The translations under genes were made by a program, and so were the position numbers. Below, in pieces: positions 5,193 to 59,831 of a stretch of DNA of 64,000 bases (position 1 is its first letter; every line of letters starts with the position of its first letter). The notes under the pieces were generated by a model, which was not told the DNA's origin, did not search any database, and was given only the letters and a program-made list of their open reading frames with translations. Origin of the DNA: a phage; sequence record OZ413487.1, one strand, 5' to 3'.

Positions 5193-5771
5193 ATGAAATG
5201 CAAACGTTGTGGAGAGGACAAGGAGGCCTCCGACTTCTACACCAGTAACAAATCAACGTGCAAAGAGTGTTGCAAGAAGGCCAGCAGGGAGGCTGACCAA
5301 TTTGCTAAAGACTCTTCAGAAAAAGGTGTAATACGTGTGTTGTACAAGGCTCAAAAGTGCAACAGCAAGCAAAGAGGTCACCCTCCTCCGACTTACACCA
5401 AAAAAGAGTTTAAGGAGTGGCTATACCTTAACGGTTACAAAGAGTTGTATGATCAGTGGGTAGCCAGCGGATACGACAAAAGGAAAAAGCCTTCTTGTGA
5501 CAGGATAGATGATTTCAAAGGGTACTCTTTTGATAATATCCGTTTAACGACTTGGGGAGAAAATAAAGACAAGCAGACAGAGGATATTCTGTTACATAGA
5601 AGCACCAGCGGTAGACGGTGCAAAAATGTAAGGAGGTTGGACATGAATGGTAACGTTCTTAAAGAATGGGTATCTCACAACTCTTGTAGCAGAGAAACCG
5701 GAATATATATTGGTTACTACATTCATGAAAAAATTCCAGCTCCAGATGGATACTTATACGAATACTTTTAA
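5193..5771 (+). CDS. zinc-ribbon protein with degenerate HNH-like segment (possible homing-endonuclease relative)
   Basis: 192 aa; N-terminal CxxC..CxxC; central C-D-R-I-D...N...N spacing resembling an HNH motif with the His replaced. Confidence 0.35.
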   Translation: MKCKRCGEDKEASDFYTSNKSTCKECCKKASREADQFAKDSSEKGVIRVLYKAQKCNSKQRGHPPPTYTKKEFKEWLYLNGYKELYDQWVASGYDKRKKPSCDRIDDFKGYSFDNIRLTTWGENKDKQTEDILLHRSTSGRRCKNVRRLDMNGNVLKEWVSHNSCSRETGIYIGYYIHEKIPAPDGYLYEYF

Positions 5772-5786
5772 CACATAACTAACATA

Positions 5787-5816
5787 GCCCTGCCCGAAAG
5801 GGTGGGGCATTTTTGT
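5787..5816 (+). terminator. rho-independent terminator
   Basis: GC-rich hairpin (gccctgccc-gaaa-gggtggggc) followed by ATTTTTG. Confidence 0.55.
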
Positions 5817-5833
5817 ATAAGGAGATCTGAAAA

Positions 5834-6250
5834 ATGACATTAGAAGATATCATTGTTAAACCTGAGAACTATGACCAATACAACCTGTCAACTCAATCTG
5901 TAGACCTTGGATGCGCCACAGTTAGTGCGTGGCTGGTTAATGGAAAAGAGCTGGACAAGTGCTTAGAAGCTCACATGTCTGTTAACAAGTTTCTGGATGA
6001 AAATACTCACTGGCTTGAGGGTGCTGGAGTATATGCTTCATGGTTGGAGAGCATGGGCTTTGACTATCAATCTGATGAAGGGTGGTGGAGCTATCTGGCT
6101 ATCTGTCCAGAAACACTGCAATGCTTCATGAAATACTCTGAAGATCTTGAGTACCGAGCGGTGGTTGATAGTGCTATTGCCCGTTATAGCCGTAAACCTT
6201 TTTCCCATGACATTAAAACTGTGGAAGAATTTGTTGAAGTTTTCTGTTGA
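5834..6250 (+). CDS. hypothetical protein
   Basis: 138 aa; AAGGAGA SD. Confidence 0.55.
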   Translation: MTLEDIIVKPENYDQYNLSTQSVDLGCATVSAWLVNGKELDKCLEAHMSVNKFLDENTHWLEGAGVYASWLESMGFDYQSDEGWWSYLAICPETLQCFMKYSEDLEYRAVVDSAIARYSRKPFSHDIKTVEEFVEVFC

Positions 6251-6346
6251 CACAGGTTGAAAGGTGTGCAATTATAACTTCATAAAACGGGAGGACGCGA
6301 TGAACGAAGAAAACTGGGATGTATAACTAACAGGAGACCACTGCCC

Positions 6347-6544
6347 ATGATTTATCGAATCCGTGTAAGAGAAGATGCACCAGGCTGTTACTTTGACTGG
6401 CGTGGGTGGTGGTTTCTCCACCCGATGGATGGACTCACAGATAGAATGCTGGATGCTGCCCTTTATACAGATACCGACATAGAATATAATCTTTATCTGA
6501 AGGACGGTATAGATAACGGCCTATTTGAAGCAATTCCTGTGTAA
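6347..6544 (+). CDS. hypothetical protein
   Basis: 65 aa; CAGGAGA SD; promoter-like TTGACA at 6247. Confidence 0.5.
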   Translation: MIYRIRVREDAPGCYFDWRGWWFLHPMDGLTDRMLDAALYTDTDIEYNLYLKDGIDNGLFEAIPV

Positions 6545-6612
6545 GAGACTGCGATAGCCATGTTTTATGATCTTCCTGTAGCACCACCACCTATTGAACC
6601 CGGAGAACCAAG

Positions 6613-7032
6613 ATGATCTATGAAATGCCAAAATTGATCCGTGACGATGCCCAAAACCACACCATTATTATGGGTAAACGCATGAATATCCTTTGCCGTA
6701 ACGATTTCTGTGGTGGAGAATACGTTGCAGACTACTTCGGTGAGAATGGTAAACACCCTGTTCAGTTCTTCCTTGACCATGAGGATAACATTATCTGGGA
6801 GTTTGAAACTGAAGATATCCGCAACCTCTTCATCTTCCTCGGTGTCAAGGTTAAGGCCAATTTCGCAGAAGGTGAGTGCGACGATTGTGGATTTTATGAG
6901 GTGACAGACTTTTATCTCCCGAGTGGCAAGAACCTTTACTATGAGAGTCACTTCGGAAACACCAACATGCCTCAAAGCTGGGAAGAATTTTTCAGTATCG
7001 TAGAAGAGGAGCTGGCATACCGTGATTATTGA
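6613..7032 (+). CDS. hypothetical protein
   Basis: 139 aa; CGGAGAA SD; directly upstream of and overlapping the macro-domain gene. Confidence 0.55.
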   Translation: MIYEMPKLIRDDAQNHTIIMGKRMNILCRNDFCGGEYVADYFGENGKHPVQFFLDHEDNIIWEFETEDIRNLFIFLGVKVKANFAEGECDDCGFYEVTDFYLPSGKNLYYESHFGNTNMPQSWEEFFSIVEEELAYRDY

Positions 7033-7480
7033 TACTGTAAAGGGAGATTTAATCTCCCTTTTTAAGAGCGGTGCTGGTCACCTGATCCACGGTTGTAACT
7101 GCTTCCACACAATGGGTAAAGGTATAGCAAAACAGATTGCCCGTGAGTTCCCTCAAGCATTGGCAGCCGACAAAGAGACGAGACACGGTTGCCTAAGTAA
7201 ACTGGGTGCGTTCTCCCGATGGGAGCACTTATCTCCGATAGGTATTGTCTACGGAATCAATCTGTATACTCAGTTCTACCCAGGGCCTAATGCTGAATAT
7301 TTCTCAATCCTGAAAGGCTTTGAGCTAGTCAATGAGGTATTCAAGGGATCGACTTTACCATTCTACATCCCTAAGATCGGGTGCGGCATAGGCGGTTTGA
7401 AGTGGGAGCACGTAGAGGACGTTATTAACCTCGCCACTTTTGATATAGATATTATCGTGGTGGAGTACAAAGAGTGTTGA
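7022..7480 (+). CDS. macro-domain protein (TARG1/OARD1/DarG-type ADP-ribose hydrolase-like)
   Basis: 152 aa; GTG start overlapping upstream stop; N-terminus GDL..(8)..AGHLIHGCNCFHTMGKGIA follows the TARG1-type pattern GDLF...LAHCIS.DC.MGAGIA. Confidence 0.65.
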   Translation: MIIDTVKGDLISLFKSGAGHLIHGCNCFHTMGKGIAKQIAREFPQALAADKETRHGCLSKLGAFSRWEHLSPIGIVYGINLYTQFYPGPNAEYFSILKGFELVNEVFKGSTLPFYIPKIGCGIGGLKWEHVEDVINLATFDIDIIVVEYKEC

Positions 7481-7533
7481 CAGCTGGCTTTTGAGATGGT
7501 ATAGTCACCACAACGATTGAGAGAGGGAGCACT

Positions 7534-7734
7534 ATGGAGACTAAAATCTTAATTCTGGCTGTGATAGATACGACCGAAGGGGCCGTGTTCGAATCTGCAG
7601 GAGGGTATTTCTACCTGCCCTACGGAAAAAGAACTTCCGAACCGAGTAAAGATTCAATCCTTAAAGTGTTCCCTTGTGCTTTCTGGCTGGAGATTCTGGT
7701 AGAAGATTGCAGAGGATTGGGGAGAGAATTATGA
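7534..7734 (+). CDS. hypothetical protein
   Basis: 66 aa; GAGGGAG SD; promoter 7477-7505. Confidence 0.45.
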   Translation: METKILILAVIDTTEGAVFESAGGYFYLPYGKRTSEPSKDSILKVFPCAFWLEILVEDCRGLGREL

Positions 7735-7925
7735 GAAACAAGAAAGAGCTTTACTCTGGCGAGTGGATCAACGATCAACAGGTCGGAGAGGTAACCTGCT
7801 TCCGATGTTTTACCAGGTACAATCTTAAAACTGCACCAAAAAGTGTTCCAAAGACTGATGGTTATTATATAAAAGAACCTCATTGCCCAAAATGTAAATG
7901 CCGATTGTACTGGAGCAATCTGTAA
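7731..7925 (+). CDS. small zinc-ribbon protein
   Basis: 64 aa; ATG 7731 after GGGGAGAG SD; CxxC...CPKCKC. Confidence 0.45.
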   Translation: MRNKKELYSGEWINDQQVGEVTCFRCFTRYNLKTAPKSVPKTDGYYIKEPHCPKCKCRLYWSNL

Positions 7926-7988
7926 GAGGTTGACATCTGAAAACTGCAGTGTATAATATACGCATAAACTAACAGAGAGCGATGTATT

Positions 7989-8180
7989 ATGGTAATTTTT
8001 AACCGGGATGGTATCATAGTTAGACAGCACCCGTTCCTTGAATACTATCAAATTGAGCAATGGTGCTACGGGGATTGCAGTCACTCCTATGGGCAAAGTT
8101 GGGGATACCGTACAGTTTTTGAATCCACAGACCTTGACAAAGTAAGACAGAAAGTTTTAGAACTTATTAACAACAAGTGA
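7989..8180 (+). CDS. hypothetical protein
   Basis: 63 aa; consensus promoter 7930-7958 upstream. Confidence 0.5.
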   Translation: MVIFNRDGIIVRQHPFLEYYQIEQWCYGDCSHSYGQSWGYRTVFESTDLDKVRQKVLELINNK

Positions 8181-8187
8181 GTATGAT

Positions 8188-8520
8188 ATGGTAACATTAG
8201 AAAGACGTAAAGCTATTGCCGCCACACTGGCAGACATCTTTTGGGATTGTAATTTAAAATCTACCCGAAATTGTGGCGCATCTGTAGATGTATTATTCCC
8301 ACGGCCTACTATTGTTGCAATGGGCAACCTTCTTGATGTGGTATATGGAGCATGGGACAAGGAAGGTGGATTCTATATCTGGCAACCTGACTACGGGACT
8401 TGGAAAGAGGTTAGTGGTTCTACGGACTTCACTCCTGCAGTGGCTAAAATGGATGGCTGGAAAATCTATGTCGGTAACGACATGGAACTGAAAGGCGAAA
8501 TTGTTTACTGGTTACCTTAA
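8188..8520 (+). CDS. hypothetical protein
   Basis: 110 aa track ORF, ATG start. Confidence 0.5.
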   Translation: MVTLERRKAIAATLADIFWDCNLKSTRNCGASVDVLFPRPTIVAMGNLLDVVYGAWDKEGGFYIWQPDYGTWKEVSGSTDFTPAVAKMDGWKIYVGNDMELKGEIVYWLP

Positions 8521-55978: not shown

Positions 55979-56692
55979 TTAAATATACTCTGTTACATCC
56001 TTGAAGCTCGAAGGCTTCATGATCTTACCTTTACTGTCAAGGAATATGATAACTTTATTACCGTTGTAGAATTCTTCCTTAGCAACAAAACCTTCATATC
56101 GACCATCAAAGCGTCGTTCAAGATCTTTAATCTCCAACTCGATGAGTTGTTCAGCAGGCATATCTGCACTGGCACCGTGTGAATACCGTAGATGGTTGAC
56201 CCGTGCAAACTTGCTGTCATTCGATTTGAGAACCTTACGCATCATCCCGCACACATCGCCGCGAAGCTGGAACAGCAAAGCTGTTGACAACTCTGCTAAG
56301 CGGTAAGCGGATGCTCTTTGCTTAGAGGTGTTTTTCGCAGCGATCAGTGTATCATAGAACTCACCGATCTTGAACTTAAGACCTCGTGGATTATCAAACA
56401 GGTTTGACCACTTTTCGTGATTGTCATTAACAAGATAAGCGGCATAACTTGTGACAACGTGAAGATCGCAGGCCTCTTTTAGCAGGTGATCTCCACCATC
56501 CCCTTTCTCCAGCTCTTCCAAAACTTCATTGAACTCTTCCTCAATGAAGCTAAGCTGTAATTCGAACGGTATGTATGATTTTTTCACTTTAGCTGCCACA
56601 CGGTTCCAGTTTTCCACCCAGTTGGCAGACCAAAGGTAGTTTTCAGGTTGGGACAGTTTTTCCAGGTTGTCAATTAATTTGGTATTCAGCAT
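55979..56692 (-). CDS. hypothetical protein (possible MazG-like NTP pyrophosphohydrolase)
   Basis: 237 aa; EEEFNEVLEELEKGD...ACDLHVV resembles MazG EExxE...D motifs (weak); AAAGGAGA SD. Confidence 0.35.
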   Translation of the reverse strand: MLNTKLIDNLEKLSQPENYLWSANWVENWNRVAAKVKKSYIPFELQLSFIEEEFNEVLEELEKGDGGDHLLKEACDLHVVTSYAAYLVNDNHEKWSNLFDNPRGLKFKIGEFYDTLIAAKNTSKQRASAYRLAELSTALLFQLRGDVCGMMRKVLKSNDSKFARVNHLRYSHGASADMPAEQLIELEIKDLERRFDGRYEGFVAKEEFYNGNKVIIFLDSKGKIMKPSSFKDVTEYI

Positions 56693-56705
56693 TAAAGGTC
56701 TCCTT

Positions 56706-57467
56706 TTAAAGTTCCATAAAGTTTTCTACGGTCTCAATGAATGTTTTATCAGAGAAGGCATCAACCGCACCGTTAAACCAAACTGGGATGCCGCGATCCT
56801 CATACTGGTAAATATCACTACGTGAAATGCCATTCTCCTCTAGATGCTGTGAGTCGTATTTATTAACGATCAGTAGTTTGGTTCCCTTATTGCAGGCAGG
56901 GAATAGCTCCCAGTTAAAATTGATAACTGTGTTGGAACACCCTACAAGGATAACCATATCATTGCTTGTAAGAGAAGTCAACAGGTCATACATGTCTGTA
57001 TACTTCGGAGCTACTTCTCCGAAGAACACCACATTAGGTTTAACCCAGGTATACTTTCCTGCATCTACCTCAGAGTATCCAATGTCCTTAATGACGTCAC
57101 TTCCTTCATCGTCCTCATAGACTATTTCTGGCAAATACCCGTGAACATGTAAAATATCTTCATGTTTTACACCAGCACGCTCCAGCAAATCATCTACATT
57201 GGTGGTAAGGTTGATCACACGACCAGACCAGCGGGAATACCACTCAGCGATCCGAAGATGTGCAAGGTTAGGCTCAACACCGCCTAGAGCTACACGACGT
57301 GCATTGTAAAAGTCATGCACCTTGTAGTAGTTCTTGGCAAAGGTGTGGATGTTGCACACCTCATCGATGCTGAAATTCTCCCACATTGCAGTGCTACCAG
57401 ATCGGAAAGTGGGAATACCAGATTCAGCGCTCAAACCAGCACCGGAGATAATAATCAGTCGTCGCAT
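56706..57467 (-). CDS. Sir2-family NAD-dependent protein
   Basis: 253 aa; ISGAGLSAESGIPTFRS matches the Sir2/CobB GAGIS..SGIPxFR signature; HG catalytic pair present; no CxxC zinc ribbon seen. Confidence 0.75.
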   Translation of the reverse strand: MRRLIIISGAGLSAESGIPTFRSGSTAMWENFSIDEVCNIHTFAKNYYKVHDFYNARRVALGGVEPNLAHLRIAEWYSRWSGRVINLTTNVDDLLERAGVKHEDILHVHGYLPEIVYEDDEGSDVIKDIGYSEVDAGKYTWVKPNVVFFGEVAPKYTDMYDLLTSLTSNDMVILVGCSNTVINFNWELFPACNKGTKLLIVNKYDSQHLEENGISRSDIYQYEDRGIPVWFNGAVDAFSDKTFIETVENFMEL

Positions 57468-57475
57468 AAGTGTCC

Positions 57476-57826
57476 TCAGTAGATGTTTTGTTTAATCTCT
57501 ATTCCAAACTTTTTAAACGAGTCAGCTGCAAGCATGAATTTACGAGCCGCTGATGGGTTAGAAGTATGCACGAAAATCTTCACGTTGTCAACTACAGGGG
57601 GCTTACCAAATACAAATTTTTCCTCCAACATAGATAGGCAATCGTACCCTTCGAACACCTCTCCAAGGTCGTTGTCCATGTGCCACTCAGAAACGCGTCT
57701 GTAGAGCTTTCCCCTATCGTTAATAAAATCTATAAACTCGGAGGAATTCTTTAGCCAAATAGCGTCTGGGAGCCCATAATTTGACGGATCTCTCAAGTCA
57801 TCCAGCCACACAATCAACTTCTTCAT
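57476..57826 (-). CDS. hypothetical protein
   Basis: 116 aa; weak SD. Confidence 0.45.
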   Translation of the reverse strand: MKKLIVWLDDLRDPSNYGLPDAIWLKNSSEFIDFINDRGKLYRRVSEWHMDNDLGEVFEGYDCLSMLEEKFVFGKPPVVDNVKIFVHTSNPSAARKFMLAADSFKKFGIEIKQNIY

Positions 57827-58740
57827 TGCATATAGTTCTCGTTGTGGAAATAGTAATCAAGTATCTCACGGCGTTCCTGCTCCAGGAGGCAGTTCCACAC
57901 ATCTTCTGTGTAATTGTTACGAATGAAGTTTACCATGCCGTAAAACTCTTCGTCAACACGTTTAAAGATATCATCATCCCAAATCCTCCAAGCTTTACCC
58001 CTCATTACGGCCTTCCGTGCCAGGTAGTATGGAGACTTGATCTTCAGCTGCAGGTCATAAGGGTAGTAAGGCTTACGGATCATATACCCTTCGCCCCTTG
58101 TTTCTGCGGCTAATTCTTTTGCATAGCTGAACGGGATTTCACGCACAGTGTGAGGACGTTTTGCACCAAGGTATTTGGCAATCCCATCTAAAGCTGCTTC
58201 TGGTAGCATTATTCCAGAATCATTATATCTGCAACCTATCAAATATGCGCCATGGTCTTCTTGAACAATATGCGGATCTGAAGGGTGACAAATTTCAAAC
58301 ATGAATGTCATGTTTTCATTGCCCATAACCTTCTTGATAAGATCTAAATTACCACATTGCTCTTGGATGGTTTCCTTTGCAAGGTTACAATATGGAGAAT
58401 CAAGAGACCCGGTTGTTGAGAACAATAGGTCACCTTTATGAGATGATACCACACCAAGGAATCCGTTCTTTTTCTCTACCGCAGTCACAAGCTTATTGTC
58501 AGGCAGGTTGGTGGAGTTTTCTCCCAAGTTAAACACTTTTGTGAAGGGCCATGCCACAACATTTCCTTCATTACCTACAACAATGCCTCGACACTCCAGT
58601 AAACGAGGGGACAAATGCCATAAATTGTTGTAAAATACTTTTCTAGCATATTTATAGATCTTTAACCCAAGATCCGGGTAATATCTACTGGTTACAAGAC
58701 CTTTGTCAACTAGGTCGTCTGCATTAAAATACTTCATCAT
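57823..58740 (-). CDS. rnlA: RNA ligase (T4 RnlA/Rnl1-like)
   Basis: ECRGIVV, KVFNLGEN, AVEKKNGFLGVVS, LFSTTGSLDS align with T4 RnlA ECRGIMF, KFFNLNEN, ILTKEDGSLVSTY, LFKSKGSIKS; ATG 58740 after GAGGAA SD. Confidence 0.75.
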   Translation of the reverse strand: MMKYFNADDLVDKGLVTSRYYPDLGLKIYKYARKVFYNNLWHLSPRLLECRGIVVGNEGNVVAWPFTKVFNLGENSTNLPDNKLVTAVEKKNGFLGVVSSHKGDLLFSTTGSLDSPYCNLAKETIQEQCGNLDLIKKVMGNENMTFMFEICHPSDPHIVQEDHGAYLIGCRYNDSGIMLPEAALDGIAKYLGAKRPHTVREIPFSYAKELAAETRGEGYMIRKPYYPYDLQLKIKSPYYLARKAVMRGKAWRIWDDDIFKRVDEEFYGMVNFIRNNYTEDVWNCLLEQERREILDYYFHNENYMQ

Positions 58741-58801
58741 ACGTTCCTCATTTGTCATTTTGTCAGTCTATCCTGCCACACAAATAACCTAGTGTCAACA
58801 C

Positions 58802-58830
58802 TTGAAATTAACAAAACAGTTAGGTATACT
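58802..58830 (+). promoter_or_regulatory. sigma70-like promoter (divergent from rnlA)
   Basis: TTGAAA-N17-TATACT; track ORF start 58802 is this -35 box. Confidence 0.5.
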
Positions 58831-58858
58831 ATCGTTGAAATTAAAACGGAGTATTACT

Positions 58859-59269
58859 ATGTCTAAAATGCTATATATCGTGCGTGGTCTACCAGGGTCT
58901 GGCAAATCAACACTGGCAAATGCGCTATCTTTAGAAGGTCTGTATCCACATTTTGAGAACGACATGTTCTGGTACGACGATGATGGAAATTACAACTGGG
59001 ATGCAAGTAAAGTAACACTTGCAGCAAAATGGTGCAAAGATAACGTAGAAGATATGATGCGTATGGGATACGACCGTATCGTGGTAAGTAATACGTTTAC
59101 AAAAGAAAAATATGTGCAAGAATATATTGACATGGCGATCAGTCATGGGTATAGTTATACCGTGATCGTGGTTGAAAACCGCCATGGTAATAAAAGCATT
59201 CATGATGTTCCAGACAGGGTTGTGGATCGTATGGAACGCCAGCTTAAAAACTGCATTAAACTTAAATGA
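58859..59269 (+). CDS. polynucleotide 5'-kinase-like P-loop kinase
   Basis: 136 aa; GLPGSGKST Walker A, VVSNTFT, HDVPDRVVDRM parallel the T4 Pnk kinase domain (GCPGSGKST, ISDTNL, VPIDVLRSM). Confidence 0.6.
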   Translation: MSKMLYIVRGLPGSGKSTLANALSLEGLYPHFENDMFWYDDDGNYNWDASKVTLAAKWCKDNVEDMMRMGYDRIVVSNTFTKEKYVQEYIDMAISHGYSYTVIVVENRHGNKSIHDVPDRVVDRMERQLKNCIKLK

Positions 59270-59276
59270 GGAATGT

Positions 59277-59831
59277 ATGAAATACTTTGTAACAAGCGAC
59301 ACACACTTTCTCCACCAGCGGGTCATGGAGTTCGATTCATGTCAAAAACACAGATCTCAGTATGATCACAATCTTGACAGTATGAATGCGGGAATCATCG
59401 CCGAGTGGAACTCTGTTGTGTCACCTGCAGACACTGTGTTCCACTTGGGAGATATTGCGTGCACTAATGATAAGAATATCAACAACTTACTTCCAGATAT
59501 TCTAAATATGTTGAACGGACATATTATTCTTGTTCGTGGCAACCATGACACAAGGACGACTGTCAGAATTATGAAAGAGTTCGGTCATGAGGTTGTAGAT
59601 TATTACGAGCTTCGCCACAACAAGAATTTGATCTGTATGAGCCATTACCAATTTGCAAAGTGGAACAGAAAGCCTCACGGATCAGTCCAACTGTTCGGTC
59701 ATGCTCACGGAACCACACAACAGTTGTTTGGCAGGCAGCTTGATGTCGGTTGGGATGTGTGGGGGAGACTCTTACCATTAGAAGAGGCATACCGTATTGC
59801 AATGAGTTTTGCTATTGACAGCGGGGAGTAA
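59277..59831 (+). CDS. calcineurin-like metallophosphoesterase
   Basis: ATG 59277 after GAGGAA SD; FHLGDI, RGNHD, GHAHG metal-ligand motifs. Confidence 0.7.
   Translation: MKYFVTSDTHFLHQRVMEFDSCQKHRSQYDHNLDSMNAGIIAEWNSVVSPADTVFHLGDIACTNDKNINNLLPDILNMLNGHIILVRGNHDTRTTVRIMKEFGHEVVDYYELRHNKNLICMSHYQFAKWNRKPHGSVQLFGHAHGTTQQLFGRQLDVGWDVWGRLLPLEEAYRIAMSFAIDSGE

What the first reader, a model, noticed from the sequence alone, without database searches (positions are those of the whole stretch)
7022..7480. TARG1/DarG-type macro domain protein, partnered in the same genome window with a Sir2 NAD-dependent enzyme
The macro domain has the GDL...HC.S/C.C.MG.GIA pattern of the TARG1/OARD1 clade, the same clade as the DarG antitoxin that removes DarT ADP-ribose from DNA. 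A Sir2-family protein is encoded at 56706-57467. Together they suggest the phage manipulates NAD+/ADP-ribose signalling, for example by reversing DNA ADP-ribosylation by DarT-like defence toxins or by processing Sir2 products. The macro gene overlaps an upstream 139-aa unknown (6613-7032) that may be a functional partner.
Basis: partly seen in the sequence, partly recalled or inferred. Interest (0 to 1): 0.6.

Follow-up and report, generated by a model that had tools for sequence, protein, structure and literature searches.

The report
Phage macrodomain, likely anti-DarT eraser
This rV5-like E. coli phage carries a small stand-alone macrodomain enzyme, related to phage T4's Tk.4/AdfM, that most likely strips ADP-ribose off phage DNA to defeat the bacterial DarTG2 defence; it is an ordinary member of a very common, recently characterised phage gene family and is not specifically partnered with the distant Sir2 gene.

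Summary
ORF 7022-7480 (+, 152 aa) is a real macrodomain: it passes Pfam's cut-off, matches PHROG 335 at 4e-60, and gives an AF2 model with pLDDT 94. Its nearest solved structures are all in the TARG1/DarG/SCO6735/Poa1p (ALC1-like) class.

The window is a Vequintavirus (rV5-like). The protein is a full-length homologue of RB49 Tk.4 (69% identity) and T4 Tk.4 (39%, E 5e-41). A 2025 preprint named T4 Tk.4 AdfM and showed that T4 needs it to resist DarTG2. The anti-DarT idea is therefore well supported, but already published for the family.

The predicted TARG1 Lys/Asp dyad is absent:
- The lysine position is Gln84, found in 116 of 117 family members and never Lys.
- The aspartate position is Gly or Ala.
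- Gln84 aligns with SCO6735 Gln85, an essential residue of an enzyme that removes thymidine-linked ADP-ribose from DNA.

So this substitution does not refute hydrolase activity.

The Sir2 "partnership" is not supported. Sir2 lies 49 kb away on the other strand, inside a predicted RNA-repair module already described for phage V5. T5 has this Sir2 but no macrodomain, and at least 1,773 macro-bearing phage records lack Sir2. The upstream ORF is a neighbour only in Vequintavirus.

Verdict: new member of a known kind, low interest.

The parts
7022..7480 (+). Macrodomain gene (152 aa, GTG start). It is a homologue of T4/RB49 Tk.4 (AdfM), belongs to PHROG 335, and has no DarG C-terminal domain.
   Evidence: ORF. 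Pfam Macro 28.3 bits and PHROG 335 at 3.9e-60. BLASTP to T4 Tk.4: 39% identity, E 5e-41, full length. tblastn to RB49 tk.4: 69%. AF2 pLDDT 94.2. Foldseek top hits are TARG1, DarG and Poa1p. PADLOC DarG matches positions 3-141 of 329 only.
7088..7099 (+). Codons for H23-G24-C25-N26. N26 is the equivalent of DarG Asn22 and SCO6735 Asn27. H23 corresponds to SCO6735 His24 and Poa1p His23.
   Evidence: N26 and G24 are invariant and H23 is present in 116 of 117 family members. Alignment to the references is in A2. Residue roles come from PMC9411070 and PMC13309987.
7115..7123 (+). G32-K33-G34, the GxG loop that follows the second strand (ADP-ribose/substrate-binding loop). K33 corresponds to SCO6735 Lys34.
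   Evidence: G34 is invariant and G32 is present in 109 of 117. K33 is present here but variable in the family (Ala 76, Ser 18, Lys 12).
7259..7273 (+). N80-L-Y-T-Q84 motif. Q84 occupies the position of the catalytic Lys of TARG1 (K84) and DarG (K80), and equals SCO6735 Gln85.
   Evidence: The profile-to-PDB alignment puts NlYtQ over NMIGQ of BT1257/SCO6735 and over LITK of TARG1. MSA A2 agrees. Q is present in 116 of 117, with no Lys; N80 is present in 117 of 117. SCO6735 Q85A and Q85E are inactive.
7379..7396 (+). G120-C-G122-I-G124-G125, the phosphate-binding loop. G124 sits where TARG1 has Asp125.
   Evidence: G120 is present in 116 of 117 and G122 in 113 of 117. Position 124 is Gly in 84 and Ala in 31, never Asp. 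It aligns to SCO6735 G126/G128 and to TARG1 GCGLDRL.
7006..7011 (+). GAGGAG Shine-Dalgarno, 10 nt upstream of the GTG start, lying inside the end of the upstream ORF.
   Evidence: Read directly from the sequence.
6613..7032 (+). Upstream 139-aa ORF (PHROG 8157, function unknown) that overlaps the macro gene by 11 nt. It is probably co-transcribed, but a functional link is not supported.
   Evidence: ORF. PHROG 8157 at 6e-62, no Pfam match. Found only in Vequintavirus and Krischvirus, 177 records. In Krischvirus Phi1 it is next to dam, 27 genes from tk.4. Only the C-terminal half is conserved. The AF2 single-sequence model is unusable, pLDDT 42.6.

Best explanation
The gene encodes a stand-alone ('orphan antitoxin-like') macrodomain ADP-ribosylhydrolase of the ALC1-like/TARG1-DarG class. 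It is the Vequintavirus counterpart of T4 Tk.4 (AdfM).

Proposed mechanism: when a host DarTG2 system is triggered, DarT2 uses NAD+ to ADP-ribosylate thymidines in single-stranded phage DNA and so blocks replication. The phage enzyme binds the ADP-ribose between its GxG loop (G32-K33-G34) and its G120-C-G122 loop. It then cleaves the thymine-N3/ribose-C1'' bond, restoring normal DNA and releasing ADP-ribose.

Catalysis is of the SCO6735 type rather than the TARG1/DarG type. Invariant Gln84, held in place by invariant Asn26, positions the distal ribose for attack by water. There is no Lys nucleophile and no Asp partner.

What is shown and what is inferred:
- Shown here: the fold, the class, homology to Tk.4, and the active-site residue pattern.
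- Shown in the literature for homologues: the anti-DarTG2 phenotype of T4 Tk.4, and the Gln-dependent T-ADPr hydrolysis by SCO6735.
- Inferred: that this Vequintavirus protein has the same substrate and the same role.
For: - Fold and class: Pfam and PHROG matches. The AF2 model has pLDDT 94.2. Foldseek gives TARG1 6.4e-10 (TM 0.74-0.80) and Mtb DarG TM 0.78, followed by Taq DarG, Poa1p, BT1257 and SCO6735, all ranked above any MacroD or viral macrodomain. The profile against PDB gives BT1257 1.9e-19, SCO6735 1.2e-17, TARG1 1e-16 and Mtb DarG 2.5e-16. The PADLOC DarG model matches at 9.5e-14.
- Homology to AdfM: tblastn hits T4 at the position between vs and tk, which is tk.4 and is annotated PHROG 335 in that record, and hits RB49 'tk.4' at 69%. 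BLASTP to T4 Tk.4 gives 39% identity, E 5e-41, over residues 1-150.
- Function of AdfM: T4 tk.4 was the single significant hit in a DarTG2 screen, and a clean knockout became DarTG2-sensitive. The PhiKZ macrodomain AdfM removes T-ADPr from oligonucleotides and protects against DarTG2.
- Active site: SCO6735 residues H24, N27, Q85, G126 and G128 map to H23, N26, Q84, G120 and G122. All are invariant or nearly so in 117 family members. SCO6735 Q85A/E and N27S lose activity, and SCO6735 rescues cells from DarT toxicity.
- Host relevance: DarTG2 defends E. coli against phages such as T5, and T5 lacks this gene.
Against: - No experiment exists for any Vequintavirus macrodomain. Bas54 (a Vequintavirus) was screened by HIDEN-SEQ, but not against DarTG2.
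- The T4 evidence is genetic and comes from a preprint. Enzymatic removal of ADP-ribose by Tk.4 is itself an inference there.
- Identity to T4 Tk.4 is only 39%.
- The family lacks the 5-residue 'mobile loop' and the Lys89 of SCO6735. The Lys34 equivalent is variable across the family, although it is present here as K33.
- Enzymes of this class are promiscuous. They act on protein Glu/Asp-ADPr, O-acyl-ADPr, U-ADPr RNA and ADPr-1''-P, so sequence alone does not fix the substrate.
Confidence: 0.6

Rival explanations
1. A small-molecule ADP-ribose clean-up enzyme: a Poa1p-like ADP-ribose-1''-phosphate phosphatase and/or an O-acyl-ADP-ribose deacylase. In this reading it processes the products of the phage's own Sir2/cREC/RNA-ligase module, where Sir2 would act like KptA, produce ADPr>P, cREC would open it, and the macrodomain would dephosphorylate it.
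For: - Poa1p is a significant homologue: profile E 3.6e-15 and Foldseek 2.7e-9.
- Window H23 and T30 align with Poa1p H23 and S30, the residues mutated in PDB entries 6lfs and 6lft.
- Public records call the gene 'phosphatase' or 'O-acetyl-ADP-ribose deacetylase'.
- The genome does encode Sir2 plus cREC plus a T4-type RNA ligase, a set predicted to generate ADPr>P.
- Macro and this Sir2 co-occur in Vequintavirinae and in some phi92-like phages. For example, LR597647 and PQ356295 appear in both hit lists.
Against: - The two genes are 49 kb apart, on opposite strands and in different gene blocks.
- The published description of the phage-V5 sirtuin neighbourhood states that it is not coupled to a macrodomain.
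- At least 1,773 of the 2,794 macro-bearing phage records have no Sir2 homologue.
- T5 has the Sir2 (58% identity) but no macrodomain.
- In T4, the Tk.4 knockout phenotype is DarTG2-specific.
- The 'phosphatase' label is inherited from a PHROG name, not from an assay.
Confidence: 0.15
2. An eraser of ADP-ribosylation on targets other than DarT2-modified DNA. Candidates are uracil-linked ADP-ribose on RNA, or Glu/Asp-linked ADP-ribose on proteins installed by other host ART-based defences or toxins.
For: - SCO6735, TARG1 and DarG all reverse uracil-ADPr on ssRNA, and SCO6735 does so efficiently (PMC13036486).
- SCO6735 also removes PARP1-type protein ADP-ribosylation in a Gln85-dependent way.
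- The family is extremely widespread. It is found in 2,794 phage records, and 41% of myoviruses encode a macrodomain. That breadth may exceed the distribution of DarTG2.
Against: - No bacterial defence that installs reversible U-ADPr or Glu-ADPr on phage targets is documented in the papers read.
- The only phenotype known for a family member is against DarTG2.
- This rival is not exclusive of the main explanation.
Confidence: 0.15
3. A non-catalytic or mainly stoichiometric inhibitor. The macrodomain would bind DarT2, or ADP-ribose-derived signals, and block them without hydrolysis.
For: Catalytically dead SCO6735 Q85A, DarG K80A and TARG1 K84A still inhibit DarT through direct interaction, and SCO6735 does so most strongly. 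AdfA and AdfB are non-enzymatic anti-DarT factors.
Against: - Every residue shown to be needed for SCO6735 catalysis is invariant or nearly invariant across 117 homologues, which argues for retained enzymatic activity.
- The protein lacks the DarT-binding C-terminal domain of DarG.
Confidence: 0.05

Closest known systems
T4 Tk.4 = AdfM (anti-DarT factor Macrodomain), with RB49 Tk.4; PHROG 335
   Same: - Same length (152 aa against 155 aa) and collinear over the full length. Identity is 39% to T4 and 69% to RB49.
- Same H-G-C-N-C-F-H-T-M-G and N-L-Y-T-Q motifs, and same PHROG.
- Both are solo macrodomains in blocks of small non-structural phage genes.
   Different: - The genomic neighbours differ. 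In T4-like phages the gene lies between vs and tk. Here it follows a PHROG 8157 ORF, downstream of the DNA polymerase region.
- The host phage family differs (Vequintavirus against Straboviridae).
- The anti-DarTG2 phenotype has been shown only for T4.
SCO6735 (S. coelicolor) and BT1257 (B. thetaiotaomicron), the Gln-type subclass of ALC1-like macrodomains
   Same: - These are the best profile hits in PDB (1.9e-19 and 1.2e-17).
- They share the essential Gln at the TARG1-Lys84 position, plus the Asn, His and two loop Gly residues.
- Both are orphan genes with no adjacent DarT. A solo bacterial member of the phage-like family in Pelagimonas also has no DarT next to it.
   Different: - The phage family lacks the 5-residue longer 'mobile loop' that defines the SCO6735 subclass, and with it Lys89. 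HMMER shows exactly a 5-residue insertion in BT1257 and SCO6735 relative to the phage profile.
- The motif is NxYTQ rather than NMIGQ, and HGCNC rather than HVCND.
- Pairwise identity is about 26-28%.
DarG2 antitoxin macrodomain (T. aquaticus, M. tuberculosis) and PhiKZ gp104 AdfM
   Same: Same fold (Foldseek TM 0.75-0.78). The PADLOC DarG model matches. The conserved Asn is shared, and the 58-residue spacing between N26 and Q84 matches that between Taq DarG N22 and K80. The proposed substrate is also the same.
   Different: - The catalytic Lys (DarG K80, PhiKZ K78) is replaced by Gln.
- There is no C-terminal DarT-binding domain: only profile positions 3-141 of 329 match.
- It is not in an operon with a DarT toxin.
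Human TARG1/OARD1
   Same: It is the top Foldseek hit (6.4e-10, TM up to 0.80).
   Different: Both residues of the Lys84/Asp125 catalytic dyad are absent, replaced by Gln84 and Gly124.
Macrodomain-linked sirtuin (SirTM) operons, and the phage-V5-type sirtuin RNA-repair neighbourhood
   Same: The genome contains both a sirtuin and a macrodomain. The sirtuin neighbourhood matches the published phage-V5 type: T4-type RNA ligase, cREC, kinase, calcineurin-like phosphoesterase and MazG.
   Different: - The macrodomain is not in or near that neighbourhood. It is 49 kb away on the opposite strand.
- The sirtuin is closest to CobB/SIRT5.
- The literature explicitly contrasts this neighbourhood with macro-coupled sirtuin systems.

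Membership tests
Macro domain superfamily (PF01661) | Passes the curated Pfam score cut-off | tested here: met
   28.3 bits against a cut-off of 22. Only the N-terminal 32 profile positions align. The PHROG and PDB profile searches cover the full length.
Macro domain superfamily (PF01661) | Alpha/beta macro fold with a GxG loop and a second glycine-rich phosphate-binding loop | tested here: met
   AF2 pLDDT 94.2 and pTM 0.90. 179 Foldseek hits at E<=1e-3, and the top-ranked hits listed are nearly all macrodomain structures or designed proteins. G32-K-G34 and G120-C-G122 are conserved.
ALC1-like / TARG1-like macrodomain class | Nearest relatives by sequence and structure are TARG1, DarG, SCO6735 and Poa1p, not MacroD, viral or PARG types | tested here: met
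   The 15 best PDB profile hits are all of this class. The next hit (TTHA0132) drops to 3.6e-4. The Foldseek top 18 are all of this class.
TARG1 (OARD1) proper | Catalytic dyad Lys84 / Asp125 | tested here: not met
   Gln84 and Gly124 occupy the aligned positions. Across 117 family members there is no Lys and no Asp at these positions.
DarG2 antitoxin | Catalytic Lys (Taq K80) in the macrodomain | tested here: not met
   Gln aligns with the Lys of the Mtb DarG 'PTKK' motif.
DarG2 antitoxin | Conserved Asn (Taq N22) in the first loop | tested here: met
   N26 is invariant and aligns with the Asn of Mtb DarG 'VNC'. Its role is described.
DarG2 antitoxin | C-terminal DarT-interacting domain, and an operon with DarT2 | tested here: not met
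   The protein is 152 aa and matches only positions 3-141 of the 329-position PADLOC DarG model. The flanking genes are small phage ORFs with no DarT.
SCO6735/BT1257 subclass | Essential Gln at the TARG1-Lys84 position, positioned by Asn27, plus His24 and Gly126/Gly128 | tested here: met
   Q84, N26, H23, G120 and G122 align with these residues and are invariant or nearly so.
SCO6735/BT1257 subclass | Five-residue longer 'mobile loop' after the Gln, containing Lys89 | tested here: not met
   HMMER places a 5-residue insertion ('iykds' / 'mktgs') in BT1257 and SCO6735 relative to the phage-family profile.
Phage AdfM of the T4 Tk.4 type (PHROG 335) | Full-length sequence homology to T4 Tk.4 | tested here: met
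   BLASTP E 5e-41, 39% identity over residues 1-150. RB49 Tk.4 is 69% identical. PHROG 335 matches at 3.9e-60, and the T4 record labels its tk.4 gene as PHROG 335.
Phage AdfM of the T4 Tk.4 type (PHROG 335) | Required for phage growth on DarTG2 hosts; removes thymidine-linked ADP-ribose | not testable with these tools
   The phenotype is known only for T4. Biochemistry is known only for PhiKZ AdfM and SCO6735.
Poa1p ADP-ribose-1''-phosphate phosphatase | Poa1p active-site residues His23 and Ser30, and phosphatase activity | tested here: inconclusive
   H23 and T30 align with Poa1p H23 and S30 (alignment; mutant names). Activity cannot be tested here, and the central part of the alignment to Poa1p was not displayed.
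Macrodomain-linked sirtuin system (SirTM-like operon) | Sirtuin and macrodomain genes adjacent or co-transcribed, and co-inherited | tested here: not met
   They are 49 kb apart on opposite strands. T5 is Sir2-positive and macro-negative. At least 1,773 macro-positive records are Sir2-negative. The literature notes that this sirtuin clade is not macro-coupled.

The most novel reading that the evidence does not exclude
The T4/rV5-type phage macrodomains would be a third mechanistic variant within the TARG1/DarG class. They combine the SCO6735-type catalytic Gln with the short loop of DarG/TARG1.

In Vequintaviruses this enzyme could be dual-purpose. It would erase DarT2 marks from DNA, and it would also finish the phage's sirtuin/cREC RNA-repair pathway by hydrolysing ADP-ribose-1''-phosphate or uracil-linked ADP-ribose on RNA. 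One small protein would then link DNA and RNA counter-defence.
Probability: 0.1. Interest if true: 0.5.

Novelty: new member of a known kind. Interest (0 to 1): 0.25.

Why it matters
If confirmed, rV5-like phages, which are candidates for therapy against pathogenic E. coli, would carry a ready-made counter to the DarTG2 defence. That helps predict host range.

The one point that adds to the literature is mechanistic. The whole T4/rV5 AdfM family has Gln where DarG and TARG1 have the catalytic Lys. The published comparison of T4 AdfM with Mtb DarG therefore hides a change of mechanism that SCO6735 biochemistry can explain.

Beyond that the gene is ordinary. Macrodomains are reported in about 41% of myoviruses (PMC9503650), and relatives of this gene are already annotated as macrodomain proteins.

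Tried and rejected
- Upstream ORF as a partner. BLASTP against T4 and RB49 Vs, the gene upstream of tk.4 in those phages, found no similarity. tblastn shows the ORF only in Vequintavirus and Krischvirus. In Krischvirus it is next to dam, 27 genes from tk.4. The idea is rejected as unsupported.\n- Structure of the upstream ORF. The single-sequence AF2 model had pLDDT 42.6 and is unusable, so no fold search was run. Only a CxxC and the C-terminal half are conserved. Its function remains unknown.\n- Sir2 as a partner. This was tested by distribution, by scanning the whole T5 genome with tblastn and the family HMM, using the window as a positive control, by neighbourhood and by literature. Rejected as a specific partnership.\n- A conserved Sir2-cREC pair in T5. 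T5 ORF094, upstream of cobB, shows no similarity to the window's cREC protein. The Vequintavirus Sir2 neighbourhood is therefore not shared with T5.\n- Sir2 as a defence-type NADase. It matches no PADLOC model, and its closest solved relatives are CobB and SIRT5. This was not pursued further.\n- A Q-type macrodomain acting as a true DarG next to a DarT. Two non-Vequintavirus homologues were examined in context (P0065 in a Pelagimonas chromosome, P0104 in a phage-like contig) and neither has an adjacent DarT.\n- LeRoux et al. 2022 (PMC9250638) could not be read because it is not held in the library.
Full report
**Where the window comes from.** Bases 5800-8200 are 98% identical to Escherichia phages MaxTheCat and A6-1, and 92-95% identical to about 120 other Vequintavirus (rV5-like) genomes. 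The first 25 kb behave the same way. In a close relative the region lies downstream of the replicative helicase and DNA polymerase, within a long run of small genes on one strand. Relatives already annotate the gene variously as 'macro domain protein', 'phosphatase', 'O-acetyl-ADP-ribose deacetylase' or 'phage T4-like protein ... with Macro domain'.

**The observation.** ORF 7022-7480 (+) encodes 152 aa from a GTG. ORF 6613-7032 (+, 139 aa) overlaps it by 11 nt. ORF 56706-57467 (-) encodes a 253-aa Sir2 protein. The macro assignment is secure:
- Pfam PF01661 scores 28.3 bits against a cut-off of 22.
- PHROG 335 matches at 3.9e-60.
- The AlphaFold2 model has pLDDT 94.2 and pTM 0.90.
- Foldseek hits with probability 1.00 are led by TARG1, DarG, Poa1p, BT1257 and SCO6735.

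The start codon is supported by a GAGGAG at 7006-7011 and by residue-1 alignment with T4 and RB49 Tk.4.

**Clade.** I collected 120 homologues and aligned 42 of them (A1). A profile built from that alignment hits the following solved structures:

| PDB protein | E-value |
|---|---|
| BT1257 | 1.9e-19 |
| SCO6735 | 1.2e-17 |
| TARG1 | 1e-16 |
| Mtb DarG | 2.5e-16 |
| Poa1p | 3.6e-15 |
| Taq DarG | 1.2e-13 |
| T. africanus DarTG | 2.6e-10 |
| Next macrodomain | 3.6e-4 |

The PADLOC DarG model matches at 9.5e-14, but only over its macro portion, positions 3-141 of 329.

**Catalytic residues.**
- In the profile alignment the family motif N-x-Y-T-Q lies over L-I-T-K of TARG1 and over N-M-I-G-Q of BT1257 and SCO6735. 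An explicit alignment with Mtb DarG (P-T-K) agrees (A2).
- Among 117 full-length family members, position 84 is Gln in 116 and Arg in 1, never Lys. Position 124, the TARG1 Asp125 position, is Gly in 84 and Ala in 31, never Asp.
- N26, N80, G24, G34 and A36 are invariant.

Counting from the alignment confirms that the aligned SCO6735 residue is Gln85. Hloušek-Kasun et al. (PMC9411070) showed four things about SCO6735:
- Gln85 is the structural equivalent of TARG1 Lys84 and DarG Lys80.
- Q85A, Q85E and N27S abolish or nearly abolish activity.
- SCO6735 removes thymidine-linked ADP-ribose from ssDNA faster than DarG or TARG1.
- SCO6735 rescues cells from DarT toxicity.

The residues they tested map as follows: H24 to H23, N27 to N26, K34 to K33, Q85 to Q84, G126 to G120 and G128 to G122. 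The phage family differs in one respect. It lacks the five-residue longer 'mobile loop', which includes Lys89 and defines the SCO6735 subclass. HMMER shows exactly a five-residue insertion in BT1257 and SCO6735 relative to the phage profile. In short, the family combines a SCO6735-type active site with a DarG/TARG1-length loop.

**Link to a characterised phage gene.** tblastn of the protein against 50,697 phage records finds homologues in 2,794 of them.
- RB49 'tk.4' matches at 69% identity.
- T4 matches at the gene between vs and tk, which is tk.4 and is tagged PHROG 335 in that record.
- BLASTP to T4 Tk.4 gives 39% identity and E 5e-41 over the whole length, including HGCNCFHTMG and NLYTQF.

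The HIDEN-SEQ preprint (bioRxiv 10.1101/2025.11.20.689424) found tk.4 as the single significant conditionally essential T4 gene on a DarTG2 host. It showed that a clean knockout becomes DarTG2-sensitive, and named the gene adfM. Independently, the PhiKZ gp104 macrodomain, also named AdfM, was shown to remove T-ADPr from oligonucleotides and to protect against DarTG2. That protein is Lys-type, with N23 and K78 (PMC13309987).

No paper found treats the Vequintavirus gene. Bas54, a Vequintavirus, was screened by HIDEN-SEQ but not on DarTG2.

**Most likely mechanism.** This is a solo, antitoxin-like hydrolase that removes DarT2-installed ADP-ribose from thymidines in phage ssDNA, using Gln84 and Asn26 to position the distal ribose for water attack.
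- Shown here: the fold, the class, the homology and the residue pattern.
- Shown elsewhere for homologues: the phenotype and the chemistry.
- Inferred: transfer of both to this protein.

I put this at about 0.6.

**The Sir2 'partner'.** The Sir2 gene is 49 kb away on the other strand. Its neighbours are:
- a T4-type RNA ligase at 57823-58758 (PF09511);
- a cREC_REC protein at 57476-57826;
- a MazG-like pyrophosphohydrolase at 55979-56692;
- a divergent P-loop kinase and a calcineurin-like phosphoesterase at 58802-59831.

Iyer et al. 2022 (PMC9503650) describe exactly this neighbourhood, naming Escherichia phage V5. They predict a KptA-like RNA-repair role for the sirtuin, and note that, unlike toxin-antitoxin sirtuins, it is not coupled to a macrodomain gene.

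Distribution argues the same way. The Sir2 has homologues in 1,021 phage records against 2,794 for the macrodomain, so at least 1,773 macro-bearing records lack it. T5 carries the Sir2 at 58% identity, yet its whole genome gives no macrodomain hit by tblastn (best E 3.6) or by the family HMM, while the window control scores 1.4e-61. T5 is also DarTG2-sensitive.

A residual link remains conceivable: a Poa1p-like macrodomain could dephosphorylate ADPr-1''-P made by a Sir2/cREC pathway. H23 and T30 align with Poa1p H23 and S30. I keep this as a rival at about 0.15.

**The upstream ORF.**
- It matches PHROG 8157 and has no Pfam match.
- It occurs only in Vequintavirus and Krischvirus, in 177 records.
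- In Krischvirus Phi1 it sits next to dam, about 9 kb and 27 genes from tk.4.
- It is unrelated to vs, the gene upstream of tk.4 in T4-like phages.
- Only its C-terminal half, which contains a CxxC, is conserved.
- A single-sequence AF2 model was unusable.

The 11-nt overlap suggests co-transcription, and nothing more.

**Verdict.** The gene is a new, untested member of a known and very common phage family whose function was published recently for T4. The Sir2 and upstream-ORF partnerships are not supported. Interest is low, about 0.25. The only modest addition is that the T4/rV5 AdfM family is uniformly Gln-type with a short loop.

Noticed in passing
window 55979-59831 (both strands): Sir2 (56706-57467, -) sits in a tight module with a cREC_REC protein (57476-57826, -), a T4 Rnl1-type RNA ligase (57823-58758, -), a MazG-like pyrophosphohydrolase (55979-56692, -), and a divergently transcribed P-loop kinase (58802-59269, +) and calcineurin-like phosphoesterase (59172-59831, +). 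This matches the 'phage V5' sirtuin RNA-repair neighbourhood predicted by Iyer et al. 2022 (PMC9503650). As far as the papers read show, it is still experimentally untested, and it is arguably more interesting than the macro gene.
   Followed up: partly
window 56706-57467 (-): The Sir2 is closest to E. coli CobB and human SIRT5. It keeps GAGxS...GIPTFR and the catalytic HG. However, the segment aligned to CobB's zinc-binding cysteines contains no Cys, so it looks like a zinc-less sirtuin. It matches no PADLOC defence-type Sir2 model.
   Followed up: partly
window 5193-5771 (+): A 192-aa HNH/endonuclease VII-like ORF (PHROG 1035) lies between the 408-aa ORF and the small-gene block, and is followed by a strong terminator-like hairpin at 5787-5808. 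Several relatives align only from about 5258 onward, so its presence may be variable, as with a homing endonuclease. This was not checked.
   Followed up: no
window 7674-7925 (+): An 83-aa ORF just downstream of the macro gene carries a Phage_zn_bind_2 domain (PF23903, 1.6e-22). Near-consensus sigma-70-like promoters lie at 7477-7505 and 7930-7957.
   Followed up: no
public records MG065644, MG065690, MG065662 and others: About 16-25 GenBank records named 'Campylobacter phage' with host C. jejuni are 92-94% identical to E. coli Vequintaviruses across this region. This probably reflects mislabelled hosts or contamination in that dataset.
   Followed up: no
L001:9147-9686 (phage Pr121LW) compared with window 7022-7480: Some relatives annotate the macro gene as 179 aa, with a 92-nt overlap into the upstream gene. 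In this window the longest possible ORF in that frame already starts at 7022 (a stop codon lies upstream), and alignment with T4 and RB49 Tk.4 supports the 152-aa form. The longer annotations are probably wrong starts.
   Followed up: partly
L006:11001-11432 (Krischvirus Phi1 ORF064): Both the macro gene (69% identity) and the upstream PHROG 8157 ORF (about 39% identity) have their closest non-Vequintavirus relatives in RB49-like Krischvirus phages, but at separate loci. This hints at gene exchange between these two E. coli myovirus groups.
   Followed up: partly
L010:5001-5459 (Pelagimonas phthalicica chromosome): A Gln-type, short-loop macrodomain of the phage-like family occurs as a solo gene among ordinary chromosomal genes, with no DarT nearby. 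So orphan cellular members of this family exist, as with SCO6735.
   Followed up: partly
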